From: Lophium mytilinum
Lineage: Eukaryota
Length of the DNA stretch: 64,000 bases
Reading direction: 5' to 3'
NCBI GenBank assembly: GCA_010093605.1
Contig: MU004184.1
Coordinates: forward strand, 1,436,801-1,500,800
Shown here in pieces: positions 16,501-61,823 of the stretch. Numbering within the stretch: position 1 is the first letter of the stretch; the number at the start of each line of letters is the position of its first letter. Below the pieces are notes generated by a model. That model did not search any database. It was not told where the DNA came from and saw only the letters and a list, made by a program, of their open reading frames with translations. Position numbers and translations under genes: made by a program.

Positions 16501-19500
16501 TGGTAACAGTCCCTGAAGCTTTCTTCTTCTTATCAGCGAGCCCAAAAAGCTCAGCATCCAGAGAATCGTCACTATCACTCTCATCTGAAGATACCATCAT
16601 ACCCTCTCCCTTAGCAGCATGGTCTTTGCCTAACACGCCAATGCCGTCTAGCCCGGACCCCGCTTCGGCCGTGTGGTCTGAAAAACCTCTGATGTTCTTC
16701 TTAGCCTGTGCTACAGCAAGCGCATCCCTCTTCTTCTTTGCCTCTTTTTCGGCTTCTCGCTTTCGCTTAAACTCAGATTGCTCTGCAGCTTTGTCCGCCG
16801 CTTTCTTCTCAGCGGCCTTCAGAGTGGCAGCAGTTTTTGAAGCTTGCCGGGCTTTGAATGCTTCGGCACCGCGAGTGCTATTAGCGATCAGTCTGTCATG
16901 CTCCTCGGTGATAGACCGCGGCCTGGACTCCGGTTTGGTGAGACCAGTGGTAAGCCAGCTGCTTAGTTGCGCTTGTTTTTGGACGGCTATGGTCTCTTCA
17001 ATCTTTTTAGTTGAACGCCCTGTGTACGTTTCAAAAGCTTGCTCCAGCTCCGCCTTGCTGATATCGCTTAATTTCGCTCTGGTAGACCCGTCGAGCACGC
17101 TCTCCACGTAGAGCACAGCTGGATCATCTACCTCGATAGAGACTTTCTTCAATCGAGTGAGTAGTTTGCTGATGAGAGATACCGAAATTGTGCTGAGCCA
17201 GTCATCACGTAGCCGCAGCCACTTGGCAATTGATTTGACTGATTTAGCGGGATGCTCCAGCAGTTCCTTTTCTGGGTTAAATCGGTCGGTGTCGTCTTTG
17301 GAAGAAGACTTGGCGGATCTAAGTGCAGAAGCGAATATACTACATTGACCGAACAACTGGTCGGCGAATTGCATCGTGTCCCGGCAGAATTCCTTCATTT
17401 CCTCCTTGTTGTATCCCATATTACTCCAATCTTCCGTGGTCCTGAAGATGATTGCCACGGCCGACCACATATTCTCCCAGAGCGTCGTGGTTATTCTAGC
17501 TTCCGGCTCCGATAGTCTGCGGCTGCGGAGAATGCCATCTTGATCGTTGCAGAGAACCTCGATGATGTCTCGGCATGCCTTCAACATGCTAGACGCTGGA
17601 GCAAATACCCTTTTTCGAAAGATACGGCGAAGAGATGTGGCAAAGGTGGTAATGGAATTAGTGTAGAAGGCTAGAAGCAAATGTTTGATGGCGTCTCTCC
17701 TTTCATCCATGGAGCTTACGATTTTGAGAAGCTCCAGGGTTGCTTCACGTGTGTCAGGTTGCGAAGAGAAAATTGTAGGAATCACGGCCGACGCAGAAAC
17801 TGGATTCTCGAAGAGGCCGTCCAACTTCTCAGGGTCAAATTCGCTGAGTCGCTCGACAGCTGCAGTAATGGTTTCTGAGGCATCATCGAAGCGATTGTTG
17901 AAATGTCGTAAGGGCGAAGGAAGCATTTGGGCCCCTCCTTCTTTTTGCCTCCTGAAGAATTTCTCCAGTCCGACCAGTGATTTTCCACCGATTAACAGCC
18001 GGACGGCCAAGTCCATGTTCTCGACGTCGATGGCTTTGATGATGGACTTCCATATCGGCGTTGCTTTGCTTGGTCCGGTAGGTGCCGGTTGTTTATTTAT
18101 GATGGCTTCTCTTTCATTCTCCAGAGAGATACATTCTAAATTGAACGCATGTTGGATCACCGAGAGGCCCAAATTGACTTCGCTTAATGGTGCCTTAATG
18201 CCGTCCACCTGCTTGATGCCTAACACTATCTTGTCGATGTGGGTCGCTAACATCTCAAAGATGTCAGCGACAGTTGCTTGACCGACGAAAGGCACATTGG
18301 GATTGCAAAGTTTCCTCAAGGTGTAGTCAAGAACCTCGAGTCCGAGTTTGAAGCAGGATGCCCGGCATGCCCAAGAGAATTTGTCCCCCTGAAGACGACC
18401 GAAGAATTGGTGGGCTAAGGCCCGGCAGACTGGTGCAATATTCGAAGGCTTGATGGAATCGAGGAGTGGCATTACCCACGAGAAGGATTCTTCGAGCTCT
18501 TCAAGGCCACTCATGTCATCACCCGTGAATCCCATCAATATTCTGCGTAGTGATGGACTCCCGAATATCTGCTCCACAACCACGACTTCCGAGATGGCAC
18601 CCATTGCGTCCCAAAAGTCTGCAGGAGACTTCTGTAGCAAGAGCTCAATTGTGTGCTGCAGATCGTTGAAGTGCGAAGAGTCCAGGGATAGATGGTCCAA
18701 ACAGAGTGTGTAGAATTTATACTCAAGAGCACGTAGTCCATGCGTGATGAGATCTTTATCCAGTCTCGCTATGATGAATCTCGCGCCGGTCCAAAATGCT
18801 GGGACAAGATCCATTTCCAGTGCAGTCATCTGCACGCGTCCCATTGCGTCTTGCAGATACCTACTGACCGCCCAGTCAAACTCAGTCCTCGTGAGCACTC
18901 TCTTCAGCTTCGTCCAAGAAAACAAGGCCCAGTCTTGGCGAACAGTGTTTGAGGTGAACAGGAACTTTGTCATAGCCGGAACATATGTGTTGAGTCTGAC
19001 GCGTCTCTTCATTTGTACCAGCTCGAAGGGTTCGTCGAAATGTCTCTTTAGGAGTCCGTCATTTTCCAGCATAGCAGCGCAGCTCAAAGTCTCGAAGAAG
19101 GCATATATGCCTTTGTTAGTCAAGACATCGATGCCGCGTTTATCTGGTTCCACATGTAACAGACTGGATTTCGCGGCCTCGAGGCCTTGCACTATTCGCC
19201 GAATGCTGATCTCATCGAGCTTCTCTAGGAAGGTCTCAACATCGTCATCTTCGAACCGTTCTGCAAGCCTGAACTTGAGCTCGCCCCGTGATTTGTGGAA
19301 AACGCGGACGCAAACATCACAGTTGGTCAACTGATTGCTCAATCGCTTCTTTATCTCTTCGTGGTATGGCTCAGCATCTGGGCCATTGAAGGCCAATATT
19401 TGAAGTGCATCCAGGACAAGCCACTTCCGCTCTTCGGCTTTCTTGATTTTCGCAATTCGGCGCGCCTTCTCCGCTTCATCGACCTTCTGTTTGCTCCCAA

Positions 19501-19669
19501 TAATGTCCTCCTCGTAGTATACGCCTGCTTCGTCTCGGGCGGTTCGGGGACAAAATAGGTGCAGGTCTGCAGGAAACCGTTTGATCTGCCTGTTGTCAAT
19601 CAGAATGAGACTACAGTAACACTGGTCCTAAATCGTGACTTACTCTATCTTTTGGATGATTTCCGCCAT
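13592..19669 (-). CDS. SEN1: Sen1/senataxin SF1 RNA/DNA helicase; 2 exons
   Basis: Walker A LIQGPPGSGKT, CAPSNAAVDE, VVVDEAAQ, LVGDPKQLPPT, QYRMH, RRMNVGLTRAK; long N-terminal SEN1_N-like region. Exon 1 19669-19644 (MAEIIQKIE) plus intron 19643-19590 continue in frame through HLFCPR into the 1934-aa ORF. Confidence 0.96.
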
Positions 19670-20978: not shown

Positions 20979-23900
20979 TTATTTCAGGTTCTCGGGTTCC
21001 TCGTCCTTTGAGACAGTCGGTCTTCTTGAGCTCAGTGCATGCCGTAATCGACTAAGTTGTCCAGTACGCTGGCCCGTCTGACTCTGACTAGATTCGATAC
21101 GAGTTAGCAATGCAGCAGAAGTAAACTCATTACTTTGCTCAAAGCTAGGTCTGACCCTGTCCATGGATACGCGTGCCCGGTCGAAGGACGGCCGTGGGCG
21201 ATCCAATGATATCCTGTTGGGGATGGTATCCAAAGAGCGCCTATAAGTGTAGTCGGTGCTGTTGCTCCCATTCTGACTCCTCGGATTGTGTGTCGTAGAG
21301 GTCGGAGCTACGGACGGAGGGTATATGGGTCGCATATCATCCTCCACAACAGGCACGTCGGGAGTCTTCTTGTTCAGCTTGGAAACATCTGACGATGACA
21401 TAGAAGCGACTTTTTCCGGAGGTGGCGGTATGAAGTCATCGTTCTCTTTGAGGTAATCGAATTTTCCTTGGCGAACCTGCTCGCGAATGATGTCCACGTC
21501 ATAGGGAAAGAAGATCTTTTGAGTAGCCTTGACCACAAAGCGGGGCAGGAGACAAATGACCACCGCCAGAAGGAGGACAGCCCAGAAAGAAAGCGATCCA
21601 TAGACTTGGGGCGCGGCTTTGTAGAATGCAGCACTTCCAGTGCCGGACGTCCACACTCCAGTCCAGAACCATACTAGAAGACAACTGATTGCGACAATGA
21701 GAAGCATTAGCCAGTCCCACCGGTAGGTGTTGAAAAGGATGTAAAAGTTGGCGGAAATGACGGCAATCGTGGCGACGTAGATACCCATTCGCTTTGTGTC
21801 ATCAATTCCCAGTCCGTTTGATGAGTTGAAAGTCGCAGGGGAGAAGAGCAGATACACCATGAAGAAGGTGACGATTGACTGGTAAACTCCGTCCGCCATA
21901 TACATCCTGGGTTCATGTTAGCATTAGCATACCTACGTGATCGGGAACAAGACAATCATACCAGAATTTAGGTTGCGTCCACTCCTTTCGCTCAATACCT
22001 CTGCGGTACAGCTGTGGGACGGCAAGCGAGACTTTGTCGTCGACATCCTGGTCCAATACGCCCATCAAGATGACGGGAAGGGAAGTGAAAGCAAGATTGA
22101 AGAGGATGATGTATGTGTAGTCGAAAATGTACGAGCAATCGTAGTTCTCGTAAATTTGATACCAGAACAGCGAAAATGTCCATACCAAGTTCTACGAAGT
22201 GTAAGCAATCCATATGTAAGAGCATCTGCTGAAAGATTCTTACCTTGTAGAAGAAATTGGCAATAGTCTCTGCCAGTCTGCGATAAGACCAACGCCCATG
22301 CACAAGACAAAGCCGCGTGAGGAAGCGGAATTGTCCAATGGCATAATCGGAAGACATCACAGCTTGTCTTCCCTCTTCACCAGCAATACCAACACCAACA
22401 TGCGCTTCCTGGATCATGGCAACGTCGTTCGCGCCGTCCCCGATTGCAAGTGTAAGACAGTCCAGTCCAGATTTGACCATATGAACAACGGCGGCTTTTT
22501 GGCTGGGACTGACTCTGCAACAAAGCACTGAGCGACACTGTTTGCAGAGCAGCAGAAACTTCTGCTTGATAGAATCGTTCAACACGAGTTTTAATGAATC
22601 ACCGTCAATGATGATGGCATGAGTCGGCGCCGGAGGTTCGTGATTATCTTGTGCAGCCTTGAGTTCTTCATCCGATCCTGTCATGTTGAAGGTCGCAAGA
22701 TGTTTGTCTAGCTCGGCTTCCGCAGTCGCCAGACTCTCGTCTTCGATTTTGAAAACAATCAGGTCCATATCGTTGTCGAGGAGATTGCAAGAAAAGCCAA
22801 TATTGATCGCGGTCTCAACCTTGTCACCGGTGAGGACCCAGAGCTTAATTCCTGCTCTACCGAGCAAGGATATAGCATCGGGAACGCCATCCTGCAACCT
22901 ATCCTCAATGGCTGTACCGCCAAGAAGCAACAGTTCTCGTTCGATCGAGTCGGCGACCTCTTCGAGCTTCTCTTCGCGGTTAGTAACAGCCCCAGCAGCT
23001 ATGTCATGCCTTTGGTTCCATTCCTGGTATTCTTCCTCGTCGAGTTCTCGCTCAGCAATGCAAAGCGTTCGTAGACCTTCACGGGCAAACATCTCGAGAT
23101 GCTCAGCAGTGCTTCGCCTGAGTTCTGGCTGCACGCCTTTCTTCAATCTCGAATATATTATGCTGTCCGCTCCTTTGCAGAACAACATAAGCTTGCCGTT
23201 GGGCATCCTGATGATAGCACTCATACGTTTCCGCGTCGAGTTGAATTCCAGAGTGTTCAAAACCGTATAAGACGTTTCCTTGCCCATTACATTGAGATTG
23301 ATGGAATCACCACTTCGGCCGAGGACTGTGAAACCCACATCACGAGCTGTAGCTACCAGCGCAGCCTCGTCGGGGGATTGAGCTTTGAATTCGATCCTTG
23401 GAGGGTCGCCAGGGGTTCTTTCGGTGATTACCGTATGACACAGAGCCAAAACCAACATGAATCTCTCGTTCGCTTGTCGTTGCTCTTCGCCCGACTCTCC
23501 AGCCAGGTCAGCAATGTAATCGGGAGCAACAAAGGTAAGGTCCTCGTCTCGCAGATAAGGATTGTTGTGCATTTTGCGAATTGACTCAATCATTCGAACG
23601 CGGTCGCGAGCAATTTGTTCGTGAGCACGAGCGCCTTCTTCTTCGACGTTAATTCCTTGTCGTCGTTGCATACCAGCTTGGGCTTCCGTGTAGGCTTCTC
23701 CGTATGGAACGCCGTTTACCGAGGCTTTCTTGAACTCCATGACGTTTTGCGTCAAAGTACCAGTCTTGTCCGAGAAAATGTACTCAATCTGGCCAACATC
23801 ATCGGAAATGTTCCAGGACTTCGGAGTGCATGGGTAATCAATTTTTTCGTAGTACATGTGGACGTCGCTGTAGATAAAGACAGCTTGTAACGTACGGATG

Positions 23901-25705
23901 ATCTCGAGGGTGATGTAGAGCGAGATAGGGACCAAATTCTGGAAGAGGATGACGCCGGCCCAGAATGTGATAAATCCGTCTAAAGGCGGGCTACCGCCGT
24001 AAGAGCCGTACTCAAATAGAGCGTGGCTCGTGTCGTCTTTGGCCCAGAAAACTCCTTGTACGATGCCAGACACCAAGCACATGAAGAACAAGATGATGAA
24101 GTTGTACACAACGTTCCAATTCAGGTCTTTGGAAATCTTAGCGCGCTTGCTGGGAGTGATGCCTGAATTGATCATGATTTTGGTTTCGTCTCCAGTGAAG
24201 ACGACGACACCTAGAGCCCATTCTGTGTTTCGCAGGTTGCAACCACGGAGAAGCAAGTTGTTGATGGTTATAGGTTCAGCCATATCCGTGGTAGGTAGAT
24301 CGGGGTCCTTGGGATCGCGTTGGGCCCATCTCACGACTCCGCTGTAAGAGTAAAGATTTGCATGCGGGCCTTCGCTTTCAATCACAAACGAAGACTTCTC
24401 GCAATGACGCGCGTGCCTCACGTTTTCGGAGCAATGCAGCGCCTGTCGGACCTTTAGATTAGTTTCGCCGTCCAGATTCTTCGTTTCAACGTAGCAAGCC
24501 CCATCAGCTTCCGAGGTGGAAAGAACCACGACGTCGGCTGGGATTTCCTCATCGTTGTACAGGCGAACAAAGTCTCCAACTTGAACATTCTTCCAATAGT
24601 CCTTCTTGAACCTAGCTTTGTCTGGGGTAGTCTTGAAAGGATCTATGATGTTGCCGTAGAATCTCTTGGCCGGTGCGGCGGGGTCCTGCTGGGCGGGCTG
24701 GCCCTTCGATCCAGGTCGAATTCCTTCGAAAGTGACAGTCGTCTGAGGATGGCCCTCAATGTCCAGCGCGTCAGGAGGCGGCCCTTGGCCTGGAATCGGG
24801 GAAGGGACTGGAGTCATCTGGATGCCTTCCTGGCTCCCTACGGAAAGGAAGGACTCTCTTCGAGACATGACGGAGGCTCTTCTTGTCTCGATTGAGGGCC
24901 TCGACTCATCCATGGACCTCTCTTGCCAGCTTTTGCCTTTCTCCCCTTTGGTCTTTTTCTTGCTCATCAGTTTCCAAGTTGAGATAATGAGCCTTGTAGT
25001 AGCCTTCTTGAATCGTCGCCACAAGGAGATCTGGTTCTCTGCTGTATTGACATTGTTAAACTCCACTAATCTGTGGACTGGAGCATTATTGAGTTCGTTA
25101 TCAAGAACCGTTCGTCGCCAATCTTCAACAGCATCCTTAACTGCAGTTATGGTTATGATTACGATCAGTGGAACGGCGTTTAGCGCTGGATTCGAGGCAC
25201 CAAAAATTTGAAAAATCTATACAGCGATTAGCCACCAAGACGTACAAAGGAGCGATATAGCGCGTACCCCGAGAATAATGATGAAGAGAAAGTACACGTT
25301 TGCGATGTTATGGAATTGGAACCACAGGTTCTTGGGCACGAAGCTTATGGCGGTGTACTTTGCGGTTCGTATCTTATTTCGAGAATAGGTGGCCTTGGGA
25401 TGCCCGTCCTCGTCCCGCTCCTCCGCGGGGAGCGGGATATTAAAGAACACCCTCCTACTGGTGTCCTGCTCATCGCTTCCGGTTTCTGAGCCACTCTCGG
25501 GGACATCGCTTTCCTTTCCCGTGGTGTTCGTAGTGCCCGAAGACTCCCGCTTTTTCTCAGTCGAGGTTGTTCGGTTGTGGAGACGTTGTATGAGCGAGGC
25601 CCGTTTCTTGTCTCCTTTGGTGCCCCCTGCTCTGTGCGTCGCCCATCGTATCCTTTTCACGGGATTCGAAACTTCGTTGTCCTCCTGATTCGGGTCGAAG
25701 GCCAT
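20979..25705 (-). CDS. DNF1: P4-type ATPase phospholipid flippase, Dnf1/Dnf2 subfamily; 4 exons
   Basis: NKIRTAKYT, KNLDGETNLK, PISLY, phosphorylation motif IFSDKTGTLT, LTGDKVETA, GDGANDVAMIQ; introns near 25267-25217, 22243-22193 and 21961-21907. Confidence 0.95.
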
Positions 25706-26917
25706 TGCGTTGGCGGGCCGGTTGGCAGGAGAGGCTGCGAGGCAAGCTCCTCAAATGCCGTGTCGCCGGCGACGGCCGGATAGGCTTCTACGCCGCAAGA
25801 AATGCCAATTCGCGAGGTGAGACAGCTGCGGCGACGTCGAGGGTCAATTATCGCTAGTTCCGCGCGCTGTGGGAGGGGTGGCGGAAGGGGGTGCGGTCAC
25901 TCAGATAGGATGAAGCGGTGATACAAATGAGCGGTGGTTCTTCGAGGACCATGGGCGGCGCGGATGGCGACGGGAGATATGGTGACGTAGAGGGTATTAG
26001 AGAAAAGGCGGTCGCGGTGAGGTCGGCAGGGGAGGTTGTCGGTGGCAGAAGAGAAAAGGTTGCGTCTTCACGATAGGTAGATGCTGACGGAGCACTCGCG
26101 GGAGCCCTGGAGCCCTTGGATTGCTGGGTTTCGCCCTAACGCCTTCGGCCGTGTAATTTCCGCTCAATAAGCAGCCGATCGATCCGGGCACGCAAGAGTC
26201 GGCTACCACAGAATTATGTAGCGCAGACGAGCCCGCGTATAATAAGAAGCTCGCTCAGCCGTACGCGCCGGCAGTGGCAGCAGTGTTATTATTATCGGCT
26301 GCGGTGCCATGCATCTCATGTCAGATTCGAGGCTGAGCGTGCTGGGGTCTGGGTTGGTTGCTGGGCAGGAAACACCGCTGCCGGCGCCGCCGCGACTCTG
26401 TAACAGGCGTAAGGCAGATTGTACATAGAGCCGCCCGTCTCTCCACGCTGCGACAGTGCGACGTGCATCCAGCGCGGCGTCGAACTTGAACTGTGAGATC
26501 CGTAGTGGAGACGTCTTCTCGGGCCCTTGTGATCCCCGAAGCGGCAGGCCGGGAGCGCACACGTCAAACCCCGAGCAGGGGACGCGTTATATGCAGAAGA
26601 GGGCTAACTACGTCTCGTCTTGTTCGAGTCCATGCTCGCGGGAGGCGCTGGCAGGAATGCGACTCAGGAGCACTCGACGTGTTCGGACGAATTGTGTCGG
26701 TCACCCTGCAGCAAAAAGACAGCTTCTGATTTGATCTGGGTTCGAATGATTTGCGAGTTGTATGTGGCCATAAACTAAAGTTCGCACGTGACCCAGGCAC
26801 GTGAAGACGTGCCTCGCCGTGAACCTCCATCCCAACCGCGCCGCACACACCAGAGCAGCACCACCATTGCGCGCCGAGAGCTGCCTCGGGCACGCCGCCG
26901 CCATTGTTACTACCACA

Positions 26918-37112: not shown

Positions 37113-37335
37113 ATACATCAACTCAGCGCTCCTAGTCCCCTGTTTCGAGCTTTCGACCGAGGTCTTCCCAGCGCCAGCATTGTTTAGGAAAGTAAACCCA
37201 GCTTGTGCTACCTATAAGCAATCGCGACCCTCTGACCTCAAGTGGAGGCTTCAAACCTGCAACGGACGTCCCCCGACGACACATCCCCTTGAACTCAAAG
37301 ACGACGATTAGGCTCGAGCTACGCGGCCAGTCAAG

Positions 37336-39085
37336 ATGGAGCAAGAAAAGGAAATCGCAAAGGCCCCGTCGCTGGACTACGAGACCGGCAAGTCCGACTT
37401 CCTCGACGAAGATGCCATGAAGCTCGCCGAGATGGGCTACACCCAGGACATGAAGCGTAACTTCTCCGTCTGGTCAGTCTTGGGTGTTGGCTTCTCTCTC
37501 ACCAACTCCTGGTTCGGTATCTCAGCAGCCATGATTACTGGTATCAATTCTGGAGGGCCTCTTCTAATCATCTACGGCATCATCCTTATTGCGCTCATCT
37601 CGACCTGTGTCGGTATCTCGCTCTCTGAACTGGCGAGTGCCCTGCCGAATGCTGGAGGCCAGTATTTCTGGGCCAACGAGTTGGCCCCGAAGCGATATGC
37701 CAATTTCGCGTCTTACCTTACTGGATGGTTTGCGTGGACTGGGTCCATCTTTACCTCTGCGTCTGTGGCTTTAGCTATGGGTAGCGCGTTGGTGGGATGC
37801 TGGCAGCTTGGACATCCTGATTTGTGAGTAGCATTTATTTCTCGAAGCAAACTAAAGGAGGGAGTTCCGATAAACATGGGGGAAAGGACCCTGAAAAAGA
37901 CATGCTATCCTCATAGAACATCTTGGCTAATTTGGTCTTCAGCGTGATCAAGCCATGGCATGTGTTCGTTGCGTATCAAATCACGAACATATTCTGCTTC
38001 TTCTTCAACTGCTACGGCAAAACCCTACCCAAAGTCGCAACCTTCACCCTCTGGACCTCCCTCGTCTCCTTCTTCGTCCTTCTTGTCGCGGTACCTGCCT
38101 CAGCACCTACCCACCAGCACGCCAAATTCGTCTTCGCGACTTTCATCAACAACACTGGCTGGAGTCAAAACGGCATTGCCTTTATTGTGGGTCTCGTAAA
38201 CACCAACTGGGCTTTTGCGTGTCTAGACTGCGCAACGCATATGGCAGAAGAGGTACATAAGCCAGAGCGCATGATCCCCATTGCCATCATGGGCACTGTC
38301 GCGATCGGGTTCGTCACCTCCTGGTTCTTCTCCATCTCCATGTTCTTCTCCATTGTCGGCGACTTCTCTGAAATCGCGGGGACCTCCACCCTTGTGCCCA
38401 TCCTGGAGCTATTTTACCGTGCCTTCAGCGAGAACACCGCTGGCGCTATCTTCGCTGAGGTCCTAATCATCCTAACCGGCTATGGCTGCTTAATTGCAAG
38501 TCACACATGGCAGAGCCGATTGTGCTGGAGCTTTGCGCGTGATAGAGGTCTCCCGGGACATCAGTGGTTGTCCCAGGTCCACCCAACGCTTGGTGTACCA
38601 GTATACGCACATTTCGTTAGTTGTGCGTGGGTAGCTGCCGTAGGCTGTCTGTATCTGGGATCCTACACTGCCTTCAACTCGTAAGTTCCCCCTCCTTCAA
38701 CAATCTAGGAATTCGAAACTAACAACCCCAAAGCATGGTCACAGCCTGCATCGTCCTCCTCTACGTCTCCTACGCCATCCCAGTCGTCTGCCTGCTCATC
38801 AAAGGCCGCAATAACATCGAGCACGGCCCTTTCTGGCTCGGCCCAATCGGCCTCTTTTCGAATATTGTTCTCCTGTGTTGGACTGCGTTCACGATCATCA
38901 TGTACAGCTTCCCATATGCCAAGCCCGTGCTTGCTAGCAATATGAACTATGTCAGCGCTGTGTATGGCGTCGTCATCACGCTTATGACTATTGACTGGGT
39001 GGTCCGCGGACGCAAGAGCTATAGAGGGCAGGAGAGTAGGCATGCCGAGGTTGAGGACGTCGTCAGAAGGGAAAGTGTGGGATGA
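37336..39085 (+). CDS. HNM1: APC-superfamily amino acid/choline transporter (ACT family), Hnm1-like choline/ethanolamine permease; 3 exons
   Basis: LAEMGYTQDMKRNFSVWSVLGVGFSLTNSWFG, LSELASALPNAGGQYFW, LDCATHMAEE, HTWQSRLCWSFARDRGLP, SNMNYVS; about 12 hydrophobic segments. Confidence 0.88.
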
Positions 39086-40251
39086 TGATGCTATGACGGA
39101 TTGAAATCTGCTTTTGTTGCTTTTGTTTCAAGAATTAGGCGCATAGGCGCCGTGAATACCTGGTGAGATTCCGTCCGATCTTAGGCAGAGAAGTCTAAAC
39201 TTCTGCAAAGACATATCTTCCAGTCATTATCAAGATATTATGTAATGAAACACCTATCTTATCCTCACTCTTTGCCTGACCGAGTACCAACTGTCTCTTT
39301 TTCGTTGTTTGTATTTTGTCACTTAATACACAAGCTCAATGGCTGACAGGTAGGCGCCTAGGTGTTCAAGTAGTCTCAAAGGGGTCGGGACCAATTCTGC
39401 AAGAGGAACACAGGTGACTGATTGACACTCATCAACGAACCGACTCGGGCAGAGAAATGGGTTTCGTACGAGGGTCATAGTAATCTTGTGGTTTACCGTT
39501 CTGATAATCGAGGTTTGAGGGCGCCGAGGCTAGTTGCTTCCTATAGATCCGTCTGAAGTTGCCTTCTCCTTTCTTTGAAGAAGACAGAAAGACTTCGCAT
39601 GTTCGAAGCATGGAAGAATACAGGCGATGAAGTGTAGATTACATAACCCATCGATCCATCTTATAACCAACCATATCCCTCGGCCCGTCGCATTTGGCCA
39701 TACGATATCGATGAGAATACAACCAATAGGAAGCTTCGAGCGATAAGAGCTGCAGCGAAATACTTGAGCAACACATGCCCTCTAAACTTTTTGTACACTA
39801 ACCTAGCACCGCCTGGGGTCCTTTGATACTTCATAAGAGATCGGAAAAGGACAATCTTAACAAGACTAAAAGCCTTGCGGGCCACGTCAAACGGTGGCAG
39901 GCTGTCTCTTCACACAGTGTGTTTAAGATAATTTACAAGGGTCCGGATGAAAGGTTGGCTTGACGCATGGAGTCAAGGGAATAGTGCTTTCGCTGTTCAG
40001 GAGTGTAAATACACTGTAATAAAACAGCATGCCAGATAGGATTCGAGAAAGGAAAAAGACAAATTCTCGACACCTTGACTAACAGCATTTCTCGACCTCA
40101 ACCATAGCTTTGCATGCTGCAACAACGCATGTGAAGCTGAACTTATCTCTTCAACTCATCCGTAGAACCTCCCTAGACAAGTTGTCAAAGAAGAGAAGTT
40201 TTCGAAGTAGAGAGACAAGCATAAACAGCCACAAACACTCAACGCCGCAGC

Positions 40252-46299: not shown

Positions 46300-47499
46300 T
46301 TAGTGGGCGTTGTTCGGAGGGGGCTCGGTCGCGGGGCCCTCAGGGGTGATGTAGCATCGGGTCATGCCGCCGTCGACAACGAAGTCGGTGCCGTTGACGA
46401 AGCTGCTCTCGTCGCTGGCGAGGAAGAGGACGGCCTGGGCTTGCTCGATGGCTTCGCCGAAGCGGCCGGTCGGGAAGTGGACGGTGCGGCGCGCACGCTT
46501 GACCTCGTCGTCGCCGAGCCAGTCTTGGAGGAGGGGAGTGCTGGGATGGTCAGATTCAATCTCGGAGGAAAGAAAGATGCGGGGAAATACTTACTTCAAT
46601 GGTGCTGGGCAGAGCGCGTTGAAGCGGTAGCCTTCACGGGCATGGCAGATAGCCAACTCTCGGGTCAACGCCAACACAGCTCCCTTGCTGGCCGTATACG
46701 CCAACTGAGGGGTAGCACTACCGACGAGCGCAACAACGGATGCAGTGTTGATGATACTGCCCTTCTTCTTGTTGAACTTCCGCAAGCTGAGAATGGCATG
46801 CTTGCTACCATACCACACGCCCTTGACGTTGATGGCCTGGGTGAGGTCCCAGATCCTGTCGGGGGTGTCGATGGCATCCGCGTCGTCGGCGTGCATGATT
46901 CCGGCATTGTTGTACATGACGTCGACACCACCCCAGGAGTCCACGCGGGCGACCATGGCTTCCACCTGGTCCTCCTTGGACACGTCGCAGATAATGGTGT
47001 CGATTTTCTCGGCGTGTGGGACAAGCTCACGCAGCCGGGCGGAGGATTTGTCTAGTGCCGACTGGGAGATGTCGGCCATGAGGACGCGGGCGCCTTCGCG
47101 GGCGAAGAGAATGCATGTCTCCAGGCCGATACCGCTATCAAGTGGTTAGTCATATAAAGTCATAGACGCAAAGAAAACCAAAAGGTGATGCTACATGAAG
47201 CAAAGCTCTCTCGGCACTCTCTAGAGAGATAGACATAGTCAAAGACGCCCAACATGCTGGGGGAAGCGACGTCGAAAAGTGAACCATGGATCGTTGATTT
47301 TGAGAGAAGTGACGTTGACTCAGAACAGCAAAACGTGTCAGATAGAGCGGAAATTGGAGAAAATGGCCCCAATTTCACAGACGATGCCTATCAGAGCACT
47401 TGAGAAACGGTGATAACGTCGAAAAGCCTACCCAGCTGCTCCGGTGACGATGCAGACCTTGCCGCCAAGACGGCCACGAGCGAAGACTTCACTGCCCAT
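46300..47499 (-). CDS. Classical NAD-dependent short-chain dehydrogenase/reductase, resembling the SDR of bacterial GlnA4 operons; 3 exons
   Basis: [18 protein letters not shown], acidic ADI, YNNAGI, INTAS, catalytic [40 protein letters not shown]; first intron about 295 nt. Confidence 0.92.
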
Positions 47500-48495
47500 G
47501 TTGAATATTGGCAGTGGCAGAGGACGGATGGTGTGTAAAGCGGTCTCGTTGCTCTGCAAGTGAAGTCGAATCAGACGATATGCACAAAAGAGAAGACGCA
47601 GAGTTTTGTGGTTCCAGCAGAATGAAATTATGACACACGCCGCCAGACAGTCATATGACGAGGCCGCCACCCGCGAGCACTGCAGGAGGGCAACGCGAAA
47701 TTTGAAGCAATGGACAAAGAAGACTTACGGAGGTGTTATCGCGAGGCAGACAATGAAAGATGGGTGAAGGAGAAGGAGCAAAGGAGAGGGCGGCGTCAAA
47801 GAAAAGGGAAGTGATGCTACGGGCAGAGTCGGTGAAAGGGCCCGATTTCGGCCACTCGAGTGCGCGATTGATTGCTGTTAGATAAGAGCCAGACTTTTTG
47901 CCATGATGACTGGCCCACCCTGCGATGGCACAGGCAATTCCTCCCGGTGGCTGCCCACCAGAGCCAGCGCTCTCCAATGGCCGCCTGCAGTGCCTGACGA
48001 GATTTGTGGTGCTTGGTGGACTCGTGAGCCCGCTGAGGGGCGCGGCACGTGGGGCATGCCGTCACACATCGTGATGGTCTAGGAGAGTAGATGCGACGGG
48101 GGGCTCTCACGATTCCCCGCCATGAGGCCGCTGGAAAAAGGGGTCTGCTCAGGGAGGGCTATGGGGCGCAAGGGAGGACGTCGCAGGTTATGTAGCACAA
48201 CCCACGCGCCGAGCCATAGCTCCGATGGAGAAGGCAGACGAGACGGTAGAGACTCCGCGCTGATGGCCACCCCACGCCATTACAGCCGCCCTCATTCGCT
48301 GAAGCTCTCCAGCGTGCATCGCCAGCTCCACCACCAGCAGCGTGCCGTCGGTGGCTTCCGCGCCCAGAAACCTGCCTTATCCCGCCCTTCGAGCTATAGC
48401 TGCCCTTAATCCGACCTCGTGTGTTTCTTGTCGCCCTCCTCCACCACCCGTCACCACCTCGTTTCCTGCGCCGAACCACCCCCCACGACCCCACC

Positions 48496-50209
48496 ATGGC
48501 CGACGAGACCCCCGACGTCACCATTGAGACCCTCCCCGAGCTCCTGAAGAATGATACCGCCGTCAAGGTGGCCGGCGTCGACGTCGATGGCATACTGCGC
48601 GGGAAGCTGATGGCGAAGAAGAAGTTCCTGTCCATTGTCAAGGACGGCTTCGGCTTCTGCTCTGTCGTCTTTGGCTGGGACATGCACGACCAGACCTATT
48701 TCAAGGAACTGGGCATCAGCAATAAGGAGAGTGGATACAGAGACATCATCGCCGTGCCAGACCTCACCTCTTTCCGCAGGATACCGTGGGAGAACGACGT
48801 CCCCTTCTTCCTTGTTAGCTTCTACGACCCCGATACGCACTCGTCGCTGAGTGCGTGCCCACGCTCCATCTTGAAGCGCACCGTGGACAAATTGGCAGAG
48901 AAGGGCTTGGGTGCCATGGCTGGAGGTGAGCTGCAGTGTGTGGGCGGAGCTCCTGCGTCAAATCGCTTGTAGCTCTGTGCAGGCTAATTGCGATTGCGAT
49001 TCGAGGAGCTAATTGTGCCTCCTCCACTTAGCGGAATACGAATTCTTCCAATTCAGGGCCCCCGAGAATCCAGGAAGCAGCGAACGAAACTCCTCCGCTA
49101 CCGCCACCTTCCTCCGAGACAATCCAGTCAATTCGCTCCCATCGCTCACCGAAGGCATGTTTGGATACAGCATAACGAGGCCGGTACATAATCAAGACTA
49201 CTTCTACGGCATTTTCGACAATTGCAAGAAGTTTAGGTGCGGCATCGAAGGATGGCATACGGAAAGTGGACCGGGTGTTTTTGAAGCTGTAAGTATTACA
49301 TTGGTAGTCGTGCGATTATATTCTAACCAAAGGCTAGGCCCTCGAGTTCGGTGAAATCACACAAATGGCGGATAAGGCGTCGCTATTCAAGTAAGGATCC
49401 CTAGACTGTATAGTTCCGGATTGGCTAACCATACCTAGACTGGTGGTCAAGTCATTGGGCAGCAAGCACGGCATAACACCCTGCTTCATGGCGAAACCTC
49501 GGGCCGGCCTCCCAGGAAACTCAGGCCATATGCATGTCTCCATTGTAGATAAGGAGGGCAAGAATCTTTTCTACCGCGAGAAAGAAGACACTGAACACAA
49601 GTGGCAAGATCTCCGGCACCTATCGGATATGGGACGGCATTTCCTCGCTGGGCTTATCGATGGTTTGGCCGACATCATGCCAATTCTCGCACCAAACATC
49701 AACTCGTATAAGCGGTTGGTCGAGAACTTCTGGGCGCCAGTGACCGTTTCATGGGGCTTGGAACATCGTGCTGCCTCTATCCGGCTTATCAGCCCGCCTA
49801 CGTCCAGCCCGAAGGCAACTAGGTTTGAGGTCAGAGTCCCAGGAGCTGATACTAACCCGCACTTCGTGCTCGCTGCGATCCTCGCCCTCGGATGGAGAGG
49901 CATTGAAAAGAAGTTGGAGATCTCTGTGCCCCCACTCGGGAAAGGAGAGGAGGTCGGAGGTGTCCAGGACAGGGGCGTACGACTAGCGAAGTCGCTGAAA
50001 GAAGCTACAGAGACCTTCATGAGGCCGGAGAGTGTAGCACGAGAAGTATTCGGAGATGAGTTTGTGGATCATTATGGAGGGACGAGGGAGCACGAGATCC
50101 GGCTTTTCGATGAAGCTGTCACGGATTGGTAAGTTTCACGGCCCTTTCTTTCAAGTGTTAAGTGCTAATTTGTCACAGGGAGGTTCGTCGCTACATTGAA
50201 GTGGTATAA
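48496..50209 (+). CDS. Glutamine-synthetase-like (GSI-type) protein, probable gamma-glutamyl-amine ligase; 5 exons
   Basis: DVDGILRGK, PDLTSFRRIPW, EYEFF, HTESGPGVFE, MAKP-PGNSGHMHVS, NSYKRL, RAASIR, RFEVRVPGADTNP; the GYEAP flap of true GS is replaced by NFWAP. Confidence 0.92.
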
Positions 50210-50712
50210 GGGCGGAGATTTCCCAAGTTCTTGGGAGTATCGAAGGTTCATGTTTCGATGCTTGAAATGACTGTGATCTAGGATATGTACGATCGGCATA
50301 ATGGAAGGTAGACGCAAAAGGGCCTTGGATAGGAATATGTACTTTTATATCCTAGAGGAATTCGATACAAATGTGTCAACCCTTAGTTCCCTCAAGCTCT
50401 GGCTAAGCGACTGCATAGCATCCTCCTTATCTCCTACGAAACCTCTCTTGTACGTACCTAGGTTTGGAATACTATCAGCATCGTGTGATAAGATCTTCAT
50501 TATTTGAAGATGTATGACGTAATCCTGACGCCCCGCATTCTCGTGACTTTATTGGCCATAGCGGGGCGAGATGCTAAGTCCGAACAGTCCATCACGTCAA
50601 GACCATGAATTGCTTCTACAAGCACTTTCCTTCAAAACTCCTTTCCCCAATTTCTGCAAGATCAATTCTTCTCAATTCCAGAAAACCAATCTCGTGTACA
50701 CGGAGACTAGCA

Positions 50713-51757
50713 ATGTCTACAGAATCAACCCAATCCGCAGCTTGTCAGTACCCCGCGGGACGCCCTCATACGCGCTAGCACCTGGTATCACGATTTCAAA
50801 ACCCAATACTGATCAATCGAACCCCAGGCTGCTCTCTCCCGGCCATTGTATCTAAGGGCTACGAGCCGAAGGGCAAATACATCACCGTCGATGGCATGAA
50901 GACATGTACGTCCCTCTTCCTCCAATTCCCCCAACCCCAACCCCCCCTGAATGCCCGATCCTCCCTCAAAGCTCCAAACCCAGCCCCATATCCCTAATAA
51001 ATAGCCACCCGAACCTCCAATTGCATACTCCTTACTAAAGACCATCTTCCACAGACTCCACCGGCCCGCCCACGGCCACCCGCGCCATCCTGATCATCTA
51101 CGACATCTTCGGCTTCTTCCCGCAGACGCTGCAAGGCGCCGACATCCTCGCCCACAGCGACAGCGAGCACCCCTACCAAGTCTTCATCCCGGACTTCTTC
51201 GACGGCGAGCCCGCGGATATCAGTTGGTACCCGCCGGACAACGAAGAAAAAGGGAAGAAGCTGGGCGAGTTCTTCAACACCAAGGCCGCGCCGCCGAAGA
51301 CGCTGCCGCGCGTGGAGACTGTAGTGAAGGAGCTGAGCGGGAAGGGAATTAAGAGCTGGGGGATCTTGGGGTTTTGCTGGGGCGGGAAGGTGAGTTGGAG
51401 CGTGGATACGTGTGGCAGGGCGGAGAAGGCTAACGGGTGGGAATGCAGATTGCGAATCTCGCCTCGATGGAGGGCACGCTGTTCAAGGCGGCGGTGGCGG
51501 CGCATCCGGCGATGGTAGCGGCAGACGACGCGCCGGGGATTACGATTCCGTACGCGATGCTGCCGAGTCAGGATGAGAATAAGGAGGATGTTGAGAAGTG
51601 GGAGAAGGGGCTGAAGGTACCGCATCTGGTGGAGTGGTTCCCGGATCAGATTCATGGGTTTATGGCGGCCAGGTCTGACCTCGAGGATCCGAAGGTGAAG
51701 AAGGAGTATGAACGTGGGTACAAGACTACGTTGGATTTCTTCCATAAGTACTTGTGA
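50713..51757 (+). CDS. Dienelactone hydrolase family alpha/beta hydrolase; 4 exons
   Basis: S-x-ACCSLP, YEPKGKY, IIYDIFGF, PDFFDG, nucleophile GFCWGGK, AAHPAM, HGFMAAR. Confidence 0.92.
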
Positions 51758-59763: not shown

Positions 59764-61823
59764 ATGGCAGGTCTAGCTCGACATGTACGTGTCCTTATTA
59801 CATTCCCCCGACACCATGCTCACGTCGTCACTAGGTTGACCCCGACGAACTCGTCAAGACGCTCCATGATCATCCTGCCCACCATGTCGGGCATCGCGCT
59901 GCACGTGCCGTCTCTCACACAACGCCTTACTCGACCCGATATGCGGCTAGTACAGAGCTCTCAAAGTTCCGTATACCACACGACGGCGCGCCGGCAGATG
60001 CAGTACATCAGTTGCTCAAAGACGAGCTGGATCTAGATGGAAGGCCGAATCTAAATCTGGCCAGCTTCGTTGGAACCTATATGGAGGGTGAGAGCTCCTA
60101 TTTAGTATTCTCTGCGGGCTGGGGCTGTAATGTGGAAATGCCTGCTAACAATCCTCTTAGAGCATGGGGAGAAACTCATGATCGAGAATCTTTCCAAAAA
60201 CCTGTCGGACGCTGATGAGTACCCGGCTATGATGAATATGCATGCAAGATGTGTATCCATTCTGGCAGATTTGTGGGGCGTGCAAAAAGGCGAGAAAGCT
60301 ATTGGATCTGCTACCACTGGCTCGAGTGAGGCGATTCATCTCGGAGGGCTCGCGATGAAGCGCCGTTGGCAAGAAAAGAGACAGAAAGAAGGAAAAGATA
60401 CCACCAAGCCGAACATCCTAATGGGGGCGAATGCTCAGGTCGCCCTCGAGAAGTTCGCGAGATACTTTGAAGTGGAAGCTCGCATACTTCCCGTGAGCGC
60501 AAAGAGCAGGTACCGCCTCGATCCCGATCTGGTGAAGAAGAACATCGATGAGAACACCATTGGCGTCTTCGTTATCCTGGGCAGCACCTACACCGGTCAT
60601 TACGAGCCTGTGGAAGAAATATCCAACATTCTTGATGATTACGAGAAGGAAACCGGTGTGGATATCCCTATCCACGTCGATGGTGCATCTGGAGCGTTCA
60701 TTGCACCATTCACCTATGCTCAAGCCGGTGGCCCGAAATGGTAAGCTTCCCTATCTCGTGTGAACCCCAAATATAGCAGAAGTTTGGTATGGCTGAAACG
60801 TGGTGTTGTACGACAGGAATTTCGAACTGCCACGCGTCAAATCGATCAACACATCTGGTCACAAGTTCGGCCTTGTCTATGCAGGCGTTGGGTGGATAAT
60901 TTGGGTGAGACTTCCTGCCGTGTCACGTCGGGCCATTTCTGATGCATGTGTGCCAGCGCGATGAGTCTTATCTTCCGAAGCATCTTGTTTTTGAGCTCCA
61001 CTACCTTGGTGGAACGGAAGAGTCGTACACGTTGAACTTCTCCCGGCCAGGAGGTCAGATCATTGCCCAGTATTACAATTTGATTCATCTTGGGTTCACC
61101 GGATACCGGCAGATCATGGTACTCTTTCTCACTCATGCCCATACGGGATTCAACTGACTGTCGCGCAGGAGAATGCTTTGGCCAACGCCAGACTTCTCAG
61201 TCGTGCTCTTGAAGCAACTGGCTGGTATCAATGTGTGAGTACGTCGGAACTGCGCCCATCCGGCTTGGCTCACCTCCTTTAGGTCAGTGATATCCATCGG
61301 AAGAAGGGAGACTACGTTTTTGAAAAAGGCAAAGAGGCCTTCAAAGAGGGTGGGACCAGTGCAGATTACAATTCGGGCATTCCTGTAGTAGCATTTCGCT
61401 TCTCCGAGGACTTCAATAAGGACTACCCCCACGTCAAGCAGGTGTCTGTCAGCAACTTGCTCAGAGCTAAACAGTACATTATACCCAGTAAGCTCAATCG
61501 TGCATGCCGGGAAGGCTCGGGCATGCAGGGCGTCCCACTGACTGACCACTCCAGATTACCCCTTGCCGCCGAACGAAGACAATACCGAGATCCTCCGAGT
61601 GGTGGTGCGGGAGTCTATGTCGATGGACCTGCTGGATAGGCTCATTTCAGACATCTGCGACGTGACGGAGACGCTGATGCATACAGACGTTGTGGACCTG
61701 GCGGCATGGCAGCCCGCCTCTGCCAGTTTCGAAAAGCAACACCTCAGTCGAGGGCTCGAGTCGCGTAACCGCCATGAAGCGAAGCAGCCAATGAGCGAGG
61801 GAGTCCATCGCTCAGTGTGCTGA
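59764..61823 (+). CDS. GAD1: Glutamate decarboxylase (PLP-dependent); 8 exons
   Basis: [43 protein letters not shown] lysine [26 protein letters not shown]; all introns GT-AG and frame-consistent on manual reading. Confidence 0.96.

What the first reader, a model, noticed from the sequence alone, without database searches (positions are those of the whole stretch)
46300..51757. Fungal SDR / GS-like ligase / Cys-hydrolase cluster resembling the bacterial GlnA4 gamma-glutamylation pathway
Seen: an SDR and a GS-like gene are divergently transcribed from a shared ~1-kb region, followed ~500 bp later by a dienelactone-hydrolase gene. The GS-like protein has NSYKRLVENFWAP where true GS has NSYKRLVPGYEAP, so it lacks the ammonium-handling flap glutamate. 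Established: that substitution characterises gamma-glutamyl-amine ligases (PuuA, PauA, GlnA3/GlnA4). In Streptomyces coelicolor, glnA4 (gamma-glutamylethanolamide synthetase) lies with an SDR, an aldehyde dehydrogenase and a gamma-glutamyl hydrolase. From memory, this SDR ([24 protein letters not shown]...[13 protein letters not shown]...YITP) closely resembles that operon's SDR. Inference: a eukaryotic protect-oxidise-deprotect route for ethanolamine or another small amine, which I do not know to be characterised in fungi. The aldehyde dehydrogenase is not in this window.
Basis: partly seen in the sequence, partly recalled or inferred. Interest (0 to 1): 0.72.

Follow-up and report, generated by a model that had tools for sequence, protein, structure and literature searches.

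The report
Fungal gamma-glutamyl ligase and dehydrogenase pair
A filamentous fungus carries a back-to-back gene pair, kept together across many fungal groups, that matches the first two enzymes bacteria use to break down ethanolamine by first tagging it with glutamate, a route not yet described in fungi.

Summary
Three spliced, transcribed genes lie at 46300-51757: an SDR (-), a glutamine-synthetase-like ligase (+) and a Cys-type dienelactone hydrolase (+). The gaps are 996 bp and 503 bp. The ligase motif is NSYKRLVENFWAP, with Trp where true GS has the flap Glu.

- **SDR:** its nearest bacterial relative is the SDR of actinobacterial GlnA4 clusters. It is 48-51% identical and the top hit in 5 of 5 genomes. 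NF004713 is its best NCBIfam but scores below cut-off. The two groups form a joint clade (SH-aLRT 98).
- **Ligase:** it is not inside the GlnA4 subclade (31-34% identity). It sits in a sister clade with Bacteroidota and Pseudomonadota proteins (38-49%), many encoded beside an ethanolamine permease, an alcohol dehydrogenase, an aldehyde dehydrogenase and a gamma-glutamyl hydrolase.
- **Linkage:** in 29 of 36 informative fungal metagenome loci the SDR lies just upstream of the ligase.
- **Hydrolase:** its link is weak (5 of 36 loci).
- **ALDH:** an orthologous ALDH flanks the pair in 6 related loci, but not in this window.

The most likely function is gamma-glutamylation of an amino alcohol (ethanolamine first) followed by oxidation. 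No fungal member has been assayed. I rate it a new variant of a known pathway, of moderate to high interest.

The parts
46300..47499 (-). SDR gene, CDS in 3 exons (47499-47432, 47134-46595, 46540-46300), 282 aa. It has the TGAAGGIG cofactor motif, Asp after beta-2 (VLMAD), and the catalytic NTAS...YTASK residues.
   Evidence: Model. Introns confirmed by run X1 contigs. Pfam adh_short. 100% identical to P0121. NF004713 is the best NCBIfam at 269 bits.
47554..47728 (-). 175-nt intron in the 5' leader of the SDR transcript.
   Evidence: CT..AC joint 47553/47729 in a contig of run X1.
47500..48495 (.). 996-bp region between the two divergent start codons. It is fully covered by a transcript-derived contig, so the two 5' leaders abut or overlap.
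   Evidence: The median gap in 29 related fungal loci is 1190 bp.
48496..50209 (+). GS-like ATP-dependent gamma-glutamyl ligase gene, 5 exons (48496-48925, 49032-49288, 49338-49390, 49439-50128, 50179-50209), 486 aa.
   Evidence: Model. Introns confirmed. PF00120 at 200.9 bits. 100% identical to P0001, with a C-terminus as in P0002.
49701..49739 (+). Motif NSYKRLVENFWAP. R321 is kept and the flap Glu327 position is Trp (codon 49731-49733).
   Evidence: Sequence. Alignment with GlnA1, GlnA4-type and Bacteroidota proteins.
50713..51757 (+). Dienelactone-hydrolase (AIM2-family) gene, 4 exons (50713-50743, 50828-50905, 51055-51389, 51449-51757), 250 aa. The nucleophile Cys is in GFCWGGK (codon 51375-51377). 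Membership in the pathway is doubtful.
   Evidence: Model. Introns confirmed. PF01738. C144, D175 and H217 are invariant in 13 orthologues.

Best explanation
The SDR and the GS-like gene form a conserved, divergently transcribed two-enzyme module of filamentous ascomycetes. It corresponds to the first two steps of the bacterial gamma-glutamyl-ethanolamide pathway. The GS-like enzyme would use ATP to activate the gamma-carboxyl of glutamate and couple it to a small amino alcohol instead of ammonia. Ethanolamine is the leading candidate. The neighbouring NAD-type SDR would then oxidise the free hydroxyl of the gamma-glutamyl amide to the aldehyde. An aldehyde dehydrogenase and an amide hydrolase, encoded elsewhere in this genome, would finish the route to glutamate plus glycine. 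The DLH next door is more likely a bystander of the AIM2 family than the hydrolase.

Shown: gene structures, transcription, homology, conserved linkage and the bacterial contexts. Inferred: substrate, reaction order and physiological role.
For: (1) Active site. Metal ligands (E129, E131, E212, E220, H269, E357), R321, R339/R344, R359 and H271 align as conserved. The flap E327 is Trp, as in the Bacteroidota relatives; it is Phe in GlnA4-type proteins (numbering from passages of PMC6529630). The protein scores 222.6 bits against TIGR00653, cut-off 429.

(2) Ligase phylogeny. In an IQ-TREE tree of 69 rows the fungal clade lies in a 60-row clade (SH-aLRT 97) together with the GlnA4-cluster proteins. 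That clade excludes GlnA1, GlnA2-type, TIGR03105-type and GGput-like paralogues.

(3) Bacterial contexts of the nearest relatives.
- Bacteroidota: 35 of 201 genomes hold a 40-49% identical homologue. Of the 15 loci examined, 5 read permease, GS-like, Fe-ADH and ALDH, with Peptidase_C26 in 4 of those 5. Four of 4 permeases tested exceed the TIGR00908 ethanolamine-permease cut-off.
- Pseudomonadota: 7 of 301 genomes hold a 38-44% homologue. In 7 of 7 loci it lies beside Fe-ADH (6 of 7) and/or ALDH (6 of 7). A permease is present in 3 of 7.
- Actinomycetes: 17 of 61 genomes hold a near-full-length match. Ten of 10 fetched loci pair the GS-like gene with the SDR about one gene apart. In the 4 loci whose intervening ORF was scanned, and a fifth by tblastn, that gene is an ALDH. 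A GntR regulator, a permease or C26 is present in some.

(4) SDR. It is 48-51% identical to the GlnA4-cluster SDR and the top hit in 5 of 5 genomes, at 229-247 bits against 130-177 for the runner-up in the 4 genomes with a second hit listed. Four of 4 cluster SDRs are true NF004713 members at 487-498 bits. The fungal SDR scores 269 bits, its best of 18950 models, with the next at 218. Eight fungal and 10 cluster SDRs form one clade with SH-aLRT 98.

(5) Fungal linkage. Of 80 metagenome loci, 36 have at least 3 kb upstream of the ligase. Of these, 29 carry the SDR orthologue upstream and 23 are divergent. They fall in four groups by nearest named homologue. Among ORF families in 38 loci of at least 8 kb, the SDR is in 28, the DLH in 7 and every other family in 6 or fewer. 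Locus tags are adjacent in 3 named Pleosporales.

(6) ALDH. An orthologous ALDH (66-85% identity among copies) flanks the pair in 6 related loci, on either side.

(7) The bacterial pathway itself is documented. GlnA4 glutamylates ethanolamine in vitro and is needed for growth on it (abstract and passages of PMC6529630). The Phaeobacter cluster is listed with an ethanolamine-binding protein (passages of PMC10132767).
Against: - No fungal member has been assayed.
- The ligase is only 31-34% identical to GlnA4-type proteins and lies outside their subclade.
- The loop that carries D50 in GS, and still an Asp in GlnA4-type and Bacteroidota proteins, reads FKELG in fungi. The amine pocket therefore differs and the substrate may not be ethanolamine.
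- The SDR is below the NF004713 cut-off.
- Eight of 15 Bacteroidota loci put the homologue beside an unknown 347-aa protein and a HAD-IIA phosphatase, with no dehydrogenase. The clade is not uniformly catabolic.
- No ALDH, C26 or TIGR00908 permease is in the window, and the rest of the genome could not be searched.
- Both proteins are 75-90% identical across classes. The SDR is named in powdery mildews (Blumeria, Erysiphe, Podosphaera). That is unusually tight conservation for an optional nutrient route.
- In 3 of 6 Sordariomycete-like loci (Humicola-like) the pair is split.
- The SDR sampling for the tree was limited to sequences I had fetched.
Confidence: 0.55

Rival explanations
1. The pair works together as ligase plus dehydrogenase, but on a different amine or amino alcohol than ethanolamine, or it makes a gamma-glutamylated signalling metabolite rather than feeding catabolism. 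This would be as proposed for FluG and the 'FluG-like regulators'.
For: - The fungal D50-loop differs from all bacterial relatives.
- Very high conservation across classes fits a housekeeping or signalling role.
- FluG is argued to be a gamma-glutamyl ligase acting on an unknown metabolite (abstract and passages of PMC6478659).
- B. bassiana FlrA (BBA_06309), a protein with a sole Gln-synt_C domain, gives pleiotropic stress, spore-quality and virulence phenotypes when deleted (abstract and passages of PMC9426541).
- The type-B Bacteroidota context is non-catabolic.
Against: - Every bacterial relative with an informative context sits with an alcohol DH, an ALDH and often an ethanolamine permease.
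- Orthology of FlrA to this protein was not tested. The held supplements gave nothing on its neighbours.
Confidence: 0.25
2. All three genes, DLH included, form the complete protect-oxidise-deprotect unit. The Cys-His-Asp DLH would replace the bacterial Peptidase_C26 as the gamma-glutamyl amide hydrolase.
For: - The DLH lies 503 bp downstream on the same strand here.
- GS and DLH are merged in two lichen gene models, P0100 and P0108.
- The DLH is downstream of the ligase in 5 of 36 loci, and is the commonest neighbour after the SDR at 7 of 38 loci in two groups.
- A Cys nucleophile is invariant.
Against: - Thirty-one of 36 loci lack it.
- In P. minitans the tags are 35 apart (PMIN03_001970 against PMIN03_002005).
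- Unrelated neighbour families (GH16, LigB, Abhydrolase_2) also recur in 4-5 loci across groups.
- No bacterial cluster holds a DLH.
- Annotators' names put it in the AIM2 family (AIM2 family protein C30D10.14). From recall, that family also occurs in yeasts that lack this ligase.
Confidence: 0.15
3. The adjacency has no functional meaning. The GS-like gene is a second, ordinary glutamine synthetase, or an inactive regulator, that merely shares a promoter region with an unrelated SDR.
For: Annotators call it glutamine synthetase, and all nucleotide and glutamate ligands are kept.
Against: - The flap Glu is lost.
- It scores far below the GlnA cut-off.
- The pair is retained in 29 of 36 loci while all other neighbours turn over.
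- The same two families are neighbours in Actinomycetes.
Confidence: 0.05

Closest known systems
GlnA4 (SCO1613) gamma-glutamylethanolamide synthetase and its cluster SCO1610-1615 in Streptomyces coelicolor (PMC6529630)
   Same: Both are GS-like ligases that keep the metal, ATP and glutamate ligands and carry an aromatic residue in place of the flap Glu. In both, the ligase is encoded beside an SDR of the same lineage (48-51% identity, joint clade). ALDH is linked in some fungal relatives.
   Different: The fungal ligase is 31-34% identical and lies in a sister clade. The fungal SDR is below the NF004713 cut-off. There is no GntR regulator, C26 hydrolase or TIGR00908 permease here. The fungal genes are intron-bearing, divergently transcribed and eukaryotic.
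Ethanolamine gamma-glutamylase clusters with an iron-type alcohol dehydrogenase (Chromohalobacter salexigens, table in PMC9397018; Phaeobacter MED193, PMC10132767), and the Bacteroidota and Pseudomonadota loci found here
   Same: These hold the nearest prokaryotic relatives of the fungal ligase (38-49% identity). They share the VEGAWAP-type flap with Trp. The logic is the same: ligase, alcohol DH, ALDH, hydrolase.
   Different: The alcohol dehydrogenase is PF00465 rather than an SDR. The genes form an operon with a permease and C26. Whether the loci found here are the same as the published clusters was not tested.
FluG and FluG-like regulators (FlrA) of filamentous fungi (PMC6478659, PMC9426541)
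   Same: These are fungal GSI-like proteins thought to make gamma-glutamylated metabolites. FlrA has a sole Gln-synt_C domain of similar size.
   Different: FluG of A. nidulans carries an N-terminal amidohydrolase domain and is likened to GlnA3 (SCO6962) plus SCO6961. Orthology of FlrA to the window's protein is untested. No SDR partner is discussed in the passages read.
PuuA-PuuD putrescine pathway of E. coli
   Same: Both use the gamma-glutamylate, oxidise, hydrolyse logic and a GS-like ligase lacking ammonium-site acids.
   Different: PuuB is an amine oxidase, not an alcohol dehydrogenase. NF045547 scores 172 bits against a cut-off of 650 for the fungal protein. GGput-like proteins fall outside the 60-row clade.
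Dienelactone hydrolase / AIM2 family (PF01738)
   Same: The fold family matches, with an invariant Cys, Asp and His at triad-like positions and an N-terminal CC motif conserved in 13 orthologues.
   Different: No solved structure is detectable by sequence. No known link to gamma-glutamyl chemistry. The function of the family is unknown to me.

Membership tests
GlnA4-type gamma-glutamylethanolamide synthetase | GS catalytic domain with conserved metal, ATP and glutamate ligands | tested here: met
   PF00120 at 200.9 bits. E129, E131, E212, E220, H269, H271, R321, R344, E357 and R359 equivalents are aligned and conserved (list from PMC6529630).
GlnA4-type gamma-glutamylethanolamide synthetase | Flap Glu327 replaced by a non-polar or aromatic residue | tested here: met
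   Trp in fungi and Bacteroidota, Phe in GlnA4-type proteins, Glu in GlnA1.
GlnA4-type gamma-glutamylethanolamide synthetase | Falls inside the clade of GlnA4-cluster proteins | tested here: not met
   The fungal clade is in a 46-row sister clade (SH-aLRT 99). The joint 60-row clade has SH-aLRT 97. Identity is 31-34%.
GlnA4-type gamma-glutamylethanolamide synthetase | Encoded with an alcohol DH, ALDH, gamma-glutamyl hydrolase and ethanolamine permease | tested here: inconclusive
   The SDR is adjacent. ALDH is adjacent in 6 related fungal loci but absent from this window. There is no C26. The only permease, 9 kb away, is TIGR00907-type.
GlnA4-type gamma-glutamylethanolamide synthetase | ATP-dependent ligation of glutamate to ethanolamine | not testable with these tools
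   This needs an enzyme assay.
NF004713 (PRK06057) SDR of GlnA4 clusters | Score at or above the curated cut-off of 404 bits | tested here: not met
   P0121 scores 269.3 bits, its best family, with the next at 218.2. Four of 4 cluster SDRs score 487-498.
NF004713 (PRK06057) SDR of GlnA4 clusters | Nearest relative by search and tree | tested here: met
   Top hit in 5 of 5 genomes. An 18-row joint clade has SH-aLRT 98.
True glutamine synthetase type I (TIGR00653) | Score at or above 429 bits, with the flap Glu and D50 present | tested here: not met
   222.6 bits. Trp is at the flap and there is no Asp at the D50 column.
FluG (A. nidulans type) | N-terminal amidohydrolase domain fused to the GS-like domain | tested here: not met
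   The protein is 486 aa with only PF00120 found in the exon scans; NCBIfam GS models align to its N-terminal exon. FluG architecture is from PMC6478659.
Dienelactone hydrolase family PF01738 | Pfam match over the gathering score, with a Cys/Asp/His triad | tested here: met
   The orthologue P0391 scores 68.9 bits against 21. The window exons score 28.1 and 29.7 bits. C144, D175 and H217 are invariant.

The most novel reading that the evidence does not exclude
Filamentous ascomycetes as a whole possess a eukaryotic gamma-glutamylation route for ethanolamine (or a related amino alcohol released by phospholipid turnover). It would be built from a bacterial-type ligase and the GlnA4-cluster-type SDR. 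Its loss would explain the pleiotropic phenotypes of 'FluG-like regulator' mutants, and the AIM2-family Cys hydrolase next door would be the long-missing gamma-glutamyl amide hydrolase, giving that family its first function.
Probability: 0.1. Interest if true: 0.8.

Novelty: new variant of a known kind. Interest (0 to 1): 0.6.

Why it matters
Both proteins are among the more conserved unnamed enzymes of Pezizomycotina, at 75-90% identity across classes. The group includes plant and human pathogens and lichen fungi. In the genome annotations seen here they are labelled 'glutamine synthetase', 'FabG' or 'glucose 1-dehydrogenase'.

A concrete, testable function would do three things. It would correct that annotation. 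It would give fungi a route for ethanolamine catabolism, which I found described only in bacteria. It would offer a biochemical starting point for the unexplained FluG-like proteins.

In one search, the five listed papers that contain 'glutamylethanolamide' are all bacterial.

Tried and rejected
- **Pattern scan of genome contigs with the SDR.** It returned only generic SDRs of 40% identity or less. Two of 80 loci had any GS-like gene nearby. It was not useful for finding the true relatives.
- **NF004713 in one Rhodococcus genome and 14 control genomes.** No match was over the cut-off.
- **Whole genome of the window.** It is not held, so an unlinked ALDH, C26 hydrolase or paralogue could not be sought.
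- **The listing of cluster members.** It was switched off. The unnamed representatives nearest the fungal clade (P0241 and others) therefore remain without taxon.
- **The protein-atlas search.** It added only that look-alike clusters are ascomycete or proteobacterial.
- **The search of earlier findings.** Nothing was on record.
- **PDB by sequence for the DLH.** No hit at E<=1e-3.
- **Sequencing runs.** No RNA holder is listed on record. The single run X1 is only guessed to be RNA. I used it solely for the joints its contigs show, not for expression level.
- **GATA (HGATAR) sites.** The window's own intergenic region has 2 against about 1.2 expected. Thirty-seven related divergent intergenic regions have 248 against about 124 under a first-order Markov control, with no comparison to other promoters and with duplicate loci included. 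This is too weak to use.
- **FlrA orthology.** The four held supplements of PMC9426541 contain no entry for BBA_06308-06310. Table S1 and Fig. S1 were not among the files held, and they may bear on this.
- **The 2026 claim that MtbGS4 clusters with eukaryotic GS (section 11 of PMC13740247).** It concerns type-II and mammalian GS, not this family.
- **Not run.** No structure prediction or complex prediction was done.

Full report
**What is there**

The region 46300-51757 holds three intron-bearing genes.
- An SDR of 282 aa lies on the minus strand, in 3 exons.
- A glutamine-synthetase-like protein of 486 aa lies on the plus strand, in 5 exons.
- A dienelactone hydrolase of 250 aa lies on the plus strand, in 4 exons.

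All nine introns have GT..AG ends. Contigs of one public run (coded X1, kind only guessed as RNA) join exactly across all nine. They also join across a further 175-nt intron in the SDR leader (47554-47728). One contig runs unbroken over the whole 996-bp space between the two divergent start codons. The models are therefore right and the genes are transcribed. The GS stop and the DLH start are 503 bp apart.

Pfam finds PF00120, adh_short and PF01738. Database proteins named Lophium mytilinum are 100% identical to the GS and SDR exons. NCBI taxonomy places that species in Dothideomycetes, Mytilinidiales. The rest of the window holds housekeeping genes: SEN1, a P4-ATPase, MutS, a WD40 protein and POP1. 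It has no aldehyde dehydrogenase and no Peptidase_C26.

**The ligase**

I aligned it with true GlnA1, GlnA2-type, TIGR03105-type, GlnA4-type and Bacteroidota proteins. The numbering comes from passages of PMC6529630.
- It keeps the metal ligands, the glutamate and nucleotide contacts, R321, R344 and R359.
- It has Trp where GS has the flap Glu327. GlnA4-type proteins have Phe there, and Bacteroidota relatives also have Trp.
- It lacks an Asp at the D50 column, which its bacterial relatives keep.
- It reaches no NCBIfam cut-off. The best score is TIGR00653 at 222.6 bits against 429.

Passages of PMC6478659 and PMC6529630 say the same of gamma-glutamyl ligases.

**The SDR**

- Among 61 genomes sampled from the class Actinomycetes, 17 hold a near-full-length best match to the fungal ligase at 31-34% identity. 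The denominator includes 7 unpublished genomes; none is among the 17.
- In 10 of 10 fetched loci an SDR 46-49% identical to the fungal SDR lies about one gene away.
- Pfam on five of these loci shows the GS-like gene and the SDR in all five. ALDH lies between them in the four where that ORF was scanned. A GntR regulator, an amino-acid permease or Peptidase_C26 is present in some. This is the layout drawn for SCO1610-1615 in PMC6529630.
- Four of 4 such SDRs are true NF004713 members at 487-498 bits, cut-off 404. The fungal SDR scores 269 bits there, its best family, with the next at 218.
- In 5 of 5 genomes the cluster SDR is the top hit of the fungal SDR. It scores 229-247 bits and 48-51% identity, against 130-177 bits for the second hit in the 4 genomes where one was listed.
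- In a tree of 64 SDRs, the 8 fungal and 10 cluster SDRs form one clade with SH-aLRT 98. The comparison set was limited to what I had fetched.

**Where the ligase really sits**

A search of 1.84 billion representatives gave unnamed relatives up to 57% identical. Their names could not be obtained.

Sampling genomes showed closer prokaryotic relatives than GlnA4.
- **Bacteroidota.** Thirty-five of 201 genomes hold a homologue at 40-49% identity. Of the 15 loci examined, 5 read permease, GS-like, iron-type alcohol dehydrogenase and ALDH, with Peptidase_C26 in 4 of those 5. Four of 4 permeases tested pass the TIGR00908 ethanolamine-permease cut-off. Eight of the 15 instead read GS-like, unknown 347-aa protein, HAD-IIA phosphatase. 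Two are otherwise placed.
- **Pseudomonadota.** Seven of 301 genomes hold a homologue at 38-44% identity. All 7 loci put it next to Fe-ADH (6 of 7) and/or ALDH (6 of 7). A permease is present in 3 of 7 and C26 in 1 of 7.

In an IQ-TREE tree of 69 rows the fungal clade, the Bacteroidota proteins and several unnamed representatives form a 46-row clade (SH-aLRT 99). This clade is sister to a 14-row group that contains the GlnA4-cluster proteins. The joint 60-row clade (SH-aLRT 97) excludes GlnA1, GlnA2-type, TIGR03105-type and GGput-like paralogues. An earlier FastTree gave the same picture.

The fungal ligase is therefore not a GlnA4 orthologue. It belongs to the wider group in which every informative bacterial context is an amino-alcohol gamma-glutamylation cluster, twice with a bona fide ethanolamine permease.

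**Linkage in fungi**

A scan of metagenome contigs returned 80 fungal loci with the ligase.
- Of 36 loci with at least 3 kb upstream, 29 carry the SDR orthologue upstream. Twenty-three are divergent, and the median gap is 1190 bp.
- By nearest named homologue: 14 of 17 are Dothideomycete-like, 4 of 4 Leotiomycete-like and 3 of 6 Sordariomycete-like (the three Humicola-like loci lack it). Eight of 9 fall in a lichen-type group, made up of six Pycnora-like, two Cladonia-like and one Varicellaria-like locus that lacks it.
- NCBI places Pycnora in Candelariomycetes. Class labels for the other genera are recalled, apart from those checked. A few near-duplicate loci were not removed.
- As a control I clustered all flank ORFs of the 38 loci of at least 8 kb. 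The SDR family is in 28, the DLH in 7 and every other family in 6 or fewer.
- Locus tags are adjacent in Paraphaeosphaeria minitans, P. sporulosa and Pseudopithomyces chartarum.
- An ALDH, orthologous among the loci at 66-85% identity, flanks the pair in 6 Dothideomycete-like loci. It lies sometimes beyond the SDR and sometimes beyond the ligase. One inversion could explain the side change, so this is a hint and not proof.

**The hydrolase**

It has an invariant Cys (GxCWGGK), Asp and His. Annotators name it AIM2 family. No solved relative is detectable by sequence.

It follows the ligase in this window, in two merged lichen gene models (P0100 and P0108) and in 5 of 36 metagenome loci. Against a functional link:
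- It is 35 locus tags away from the ligase in P. minitans.
- It lies on other contigs in several named species.
- Unrelated families recur at similar rates.
- No bacterial cluster has a DLH.

I rate it a weak candidate for the deprotecting step.

**Reading**

The best-supported mechanism has two steps.
1. The ligase makes a gamma-glutamyl amide of an amino alcohol, with ethanolamine first in line.
2. The SDR oxidises the amide's hydroxyl. Its Asp after beta-2 suggests NAD, by the usual SDR rule; this is inference.

The aldehyde dehydrogenase and hydrolase steps would be encoded elsewhere.

Homology, linkage and transcription are shown. Substrate and physiology are inferred. The altered D50 loop, the tight conservation (including the SDR in powdery mildews) and the non-catabolic type-B context keep a different substrate or a signalling role alive.

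**Literature**

I found no paper that ties this fungal pair to gamma-glutamyl-ethanolamide. The nearest fungal work concerns FluG (PMC6478659) and the 'FluG-like regulator' FlrA of Beauveria bassiana (PMC9426541). FlrA has a sole Gln-synt_C domain and may be an orthologue. I could not test this.

**Verdict**

This is a new, eukaryotic variant of a known bacterial pathway, and it is well suited to direct enzymatic and genetic tests.

Noticed in passing
window 37312-39127 (+): An amino-acid permease gene of the TIGR00907 (2A0304) type lies 9 kb upstream of the SDR; two exons score 147.7 and 240.6 bits. One actinobacterial GlnA4-type locus (L119) carries a permease of the same subfamily rather than TIGR00908. 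A related permease lies within 10 kb of the pair in 2 of 80 fungal loci (L282, L289).
   Followed up: partly
window 60106-60741 (+): An exon of a glutamate decarboxylase (TIGR01788, 263 bits) lies 8 kb beyond the DLH. A 77% identical copy lies near the pair in one Leotiomycete-like locus (L289).
   Followed up: partly
L202-L206, L208, L210, L211 (Bacteroidota): In 8 of 15 Bacteroidota loci the ligase homologue is followed by a conserved 347-aa protein with no Pfam or NCBIfam match and then a HAD-IIA phosphatase. This is an uncharacterised three-gene unit.
   Followed up: partly
L135/L149 (G059 contig C4) and L166 (Acidobacteriota): SDRs that sit beside other GS-like ligases (a GGput-like one; one next to Peptidase_C26) fall in the 23-row clade (SH-aLRT 95) around the fungal and GlnA4-cluster SDRs. 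Ligase-SDR pairing may therefore be older than the GlnA4 cluster.
   Followed up: no
intergenic regions of L214-L291 between SDR and ligase: HGATAR sites total 248 against about 124 expected in 37 related divergent intergenic regions. The window's own region has 2 against about 1.2. There is no control against other promoters.
   Followed up: partly
L122:11592-12551 (-): A choline/ethanolamine-kinase-family gene lies directly beside the SDR of one actinobacterial GlnA4-type cluster.
   Followed up: no
window 20982-25750 (-): A phospholipid-translocating P4-ATPase gene and, at 13595-19627, a SEN1 helicase gene. These are ordinary housekeeping neighbours.
   Followed up: no
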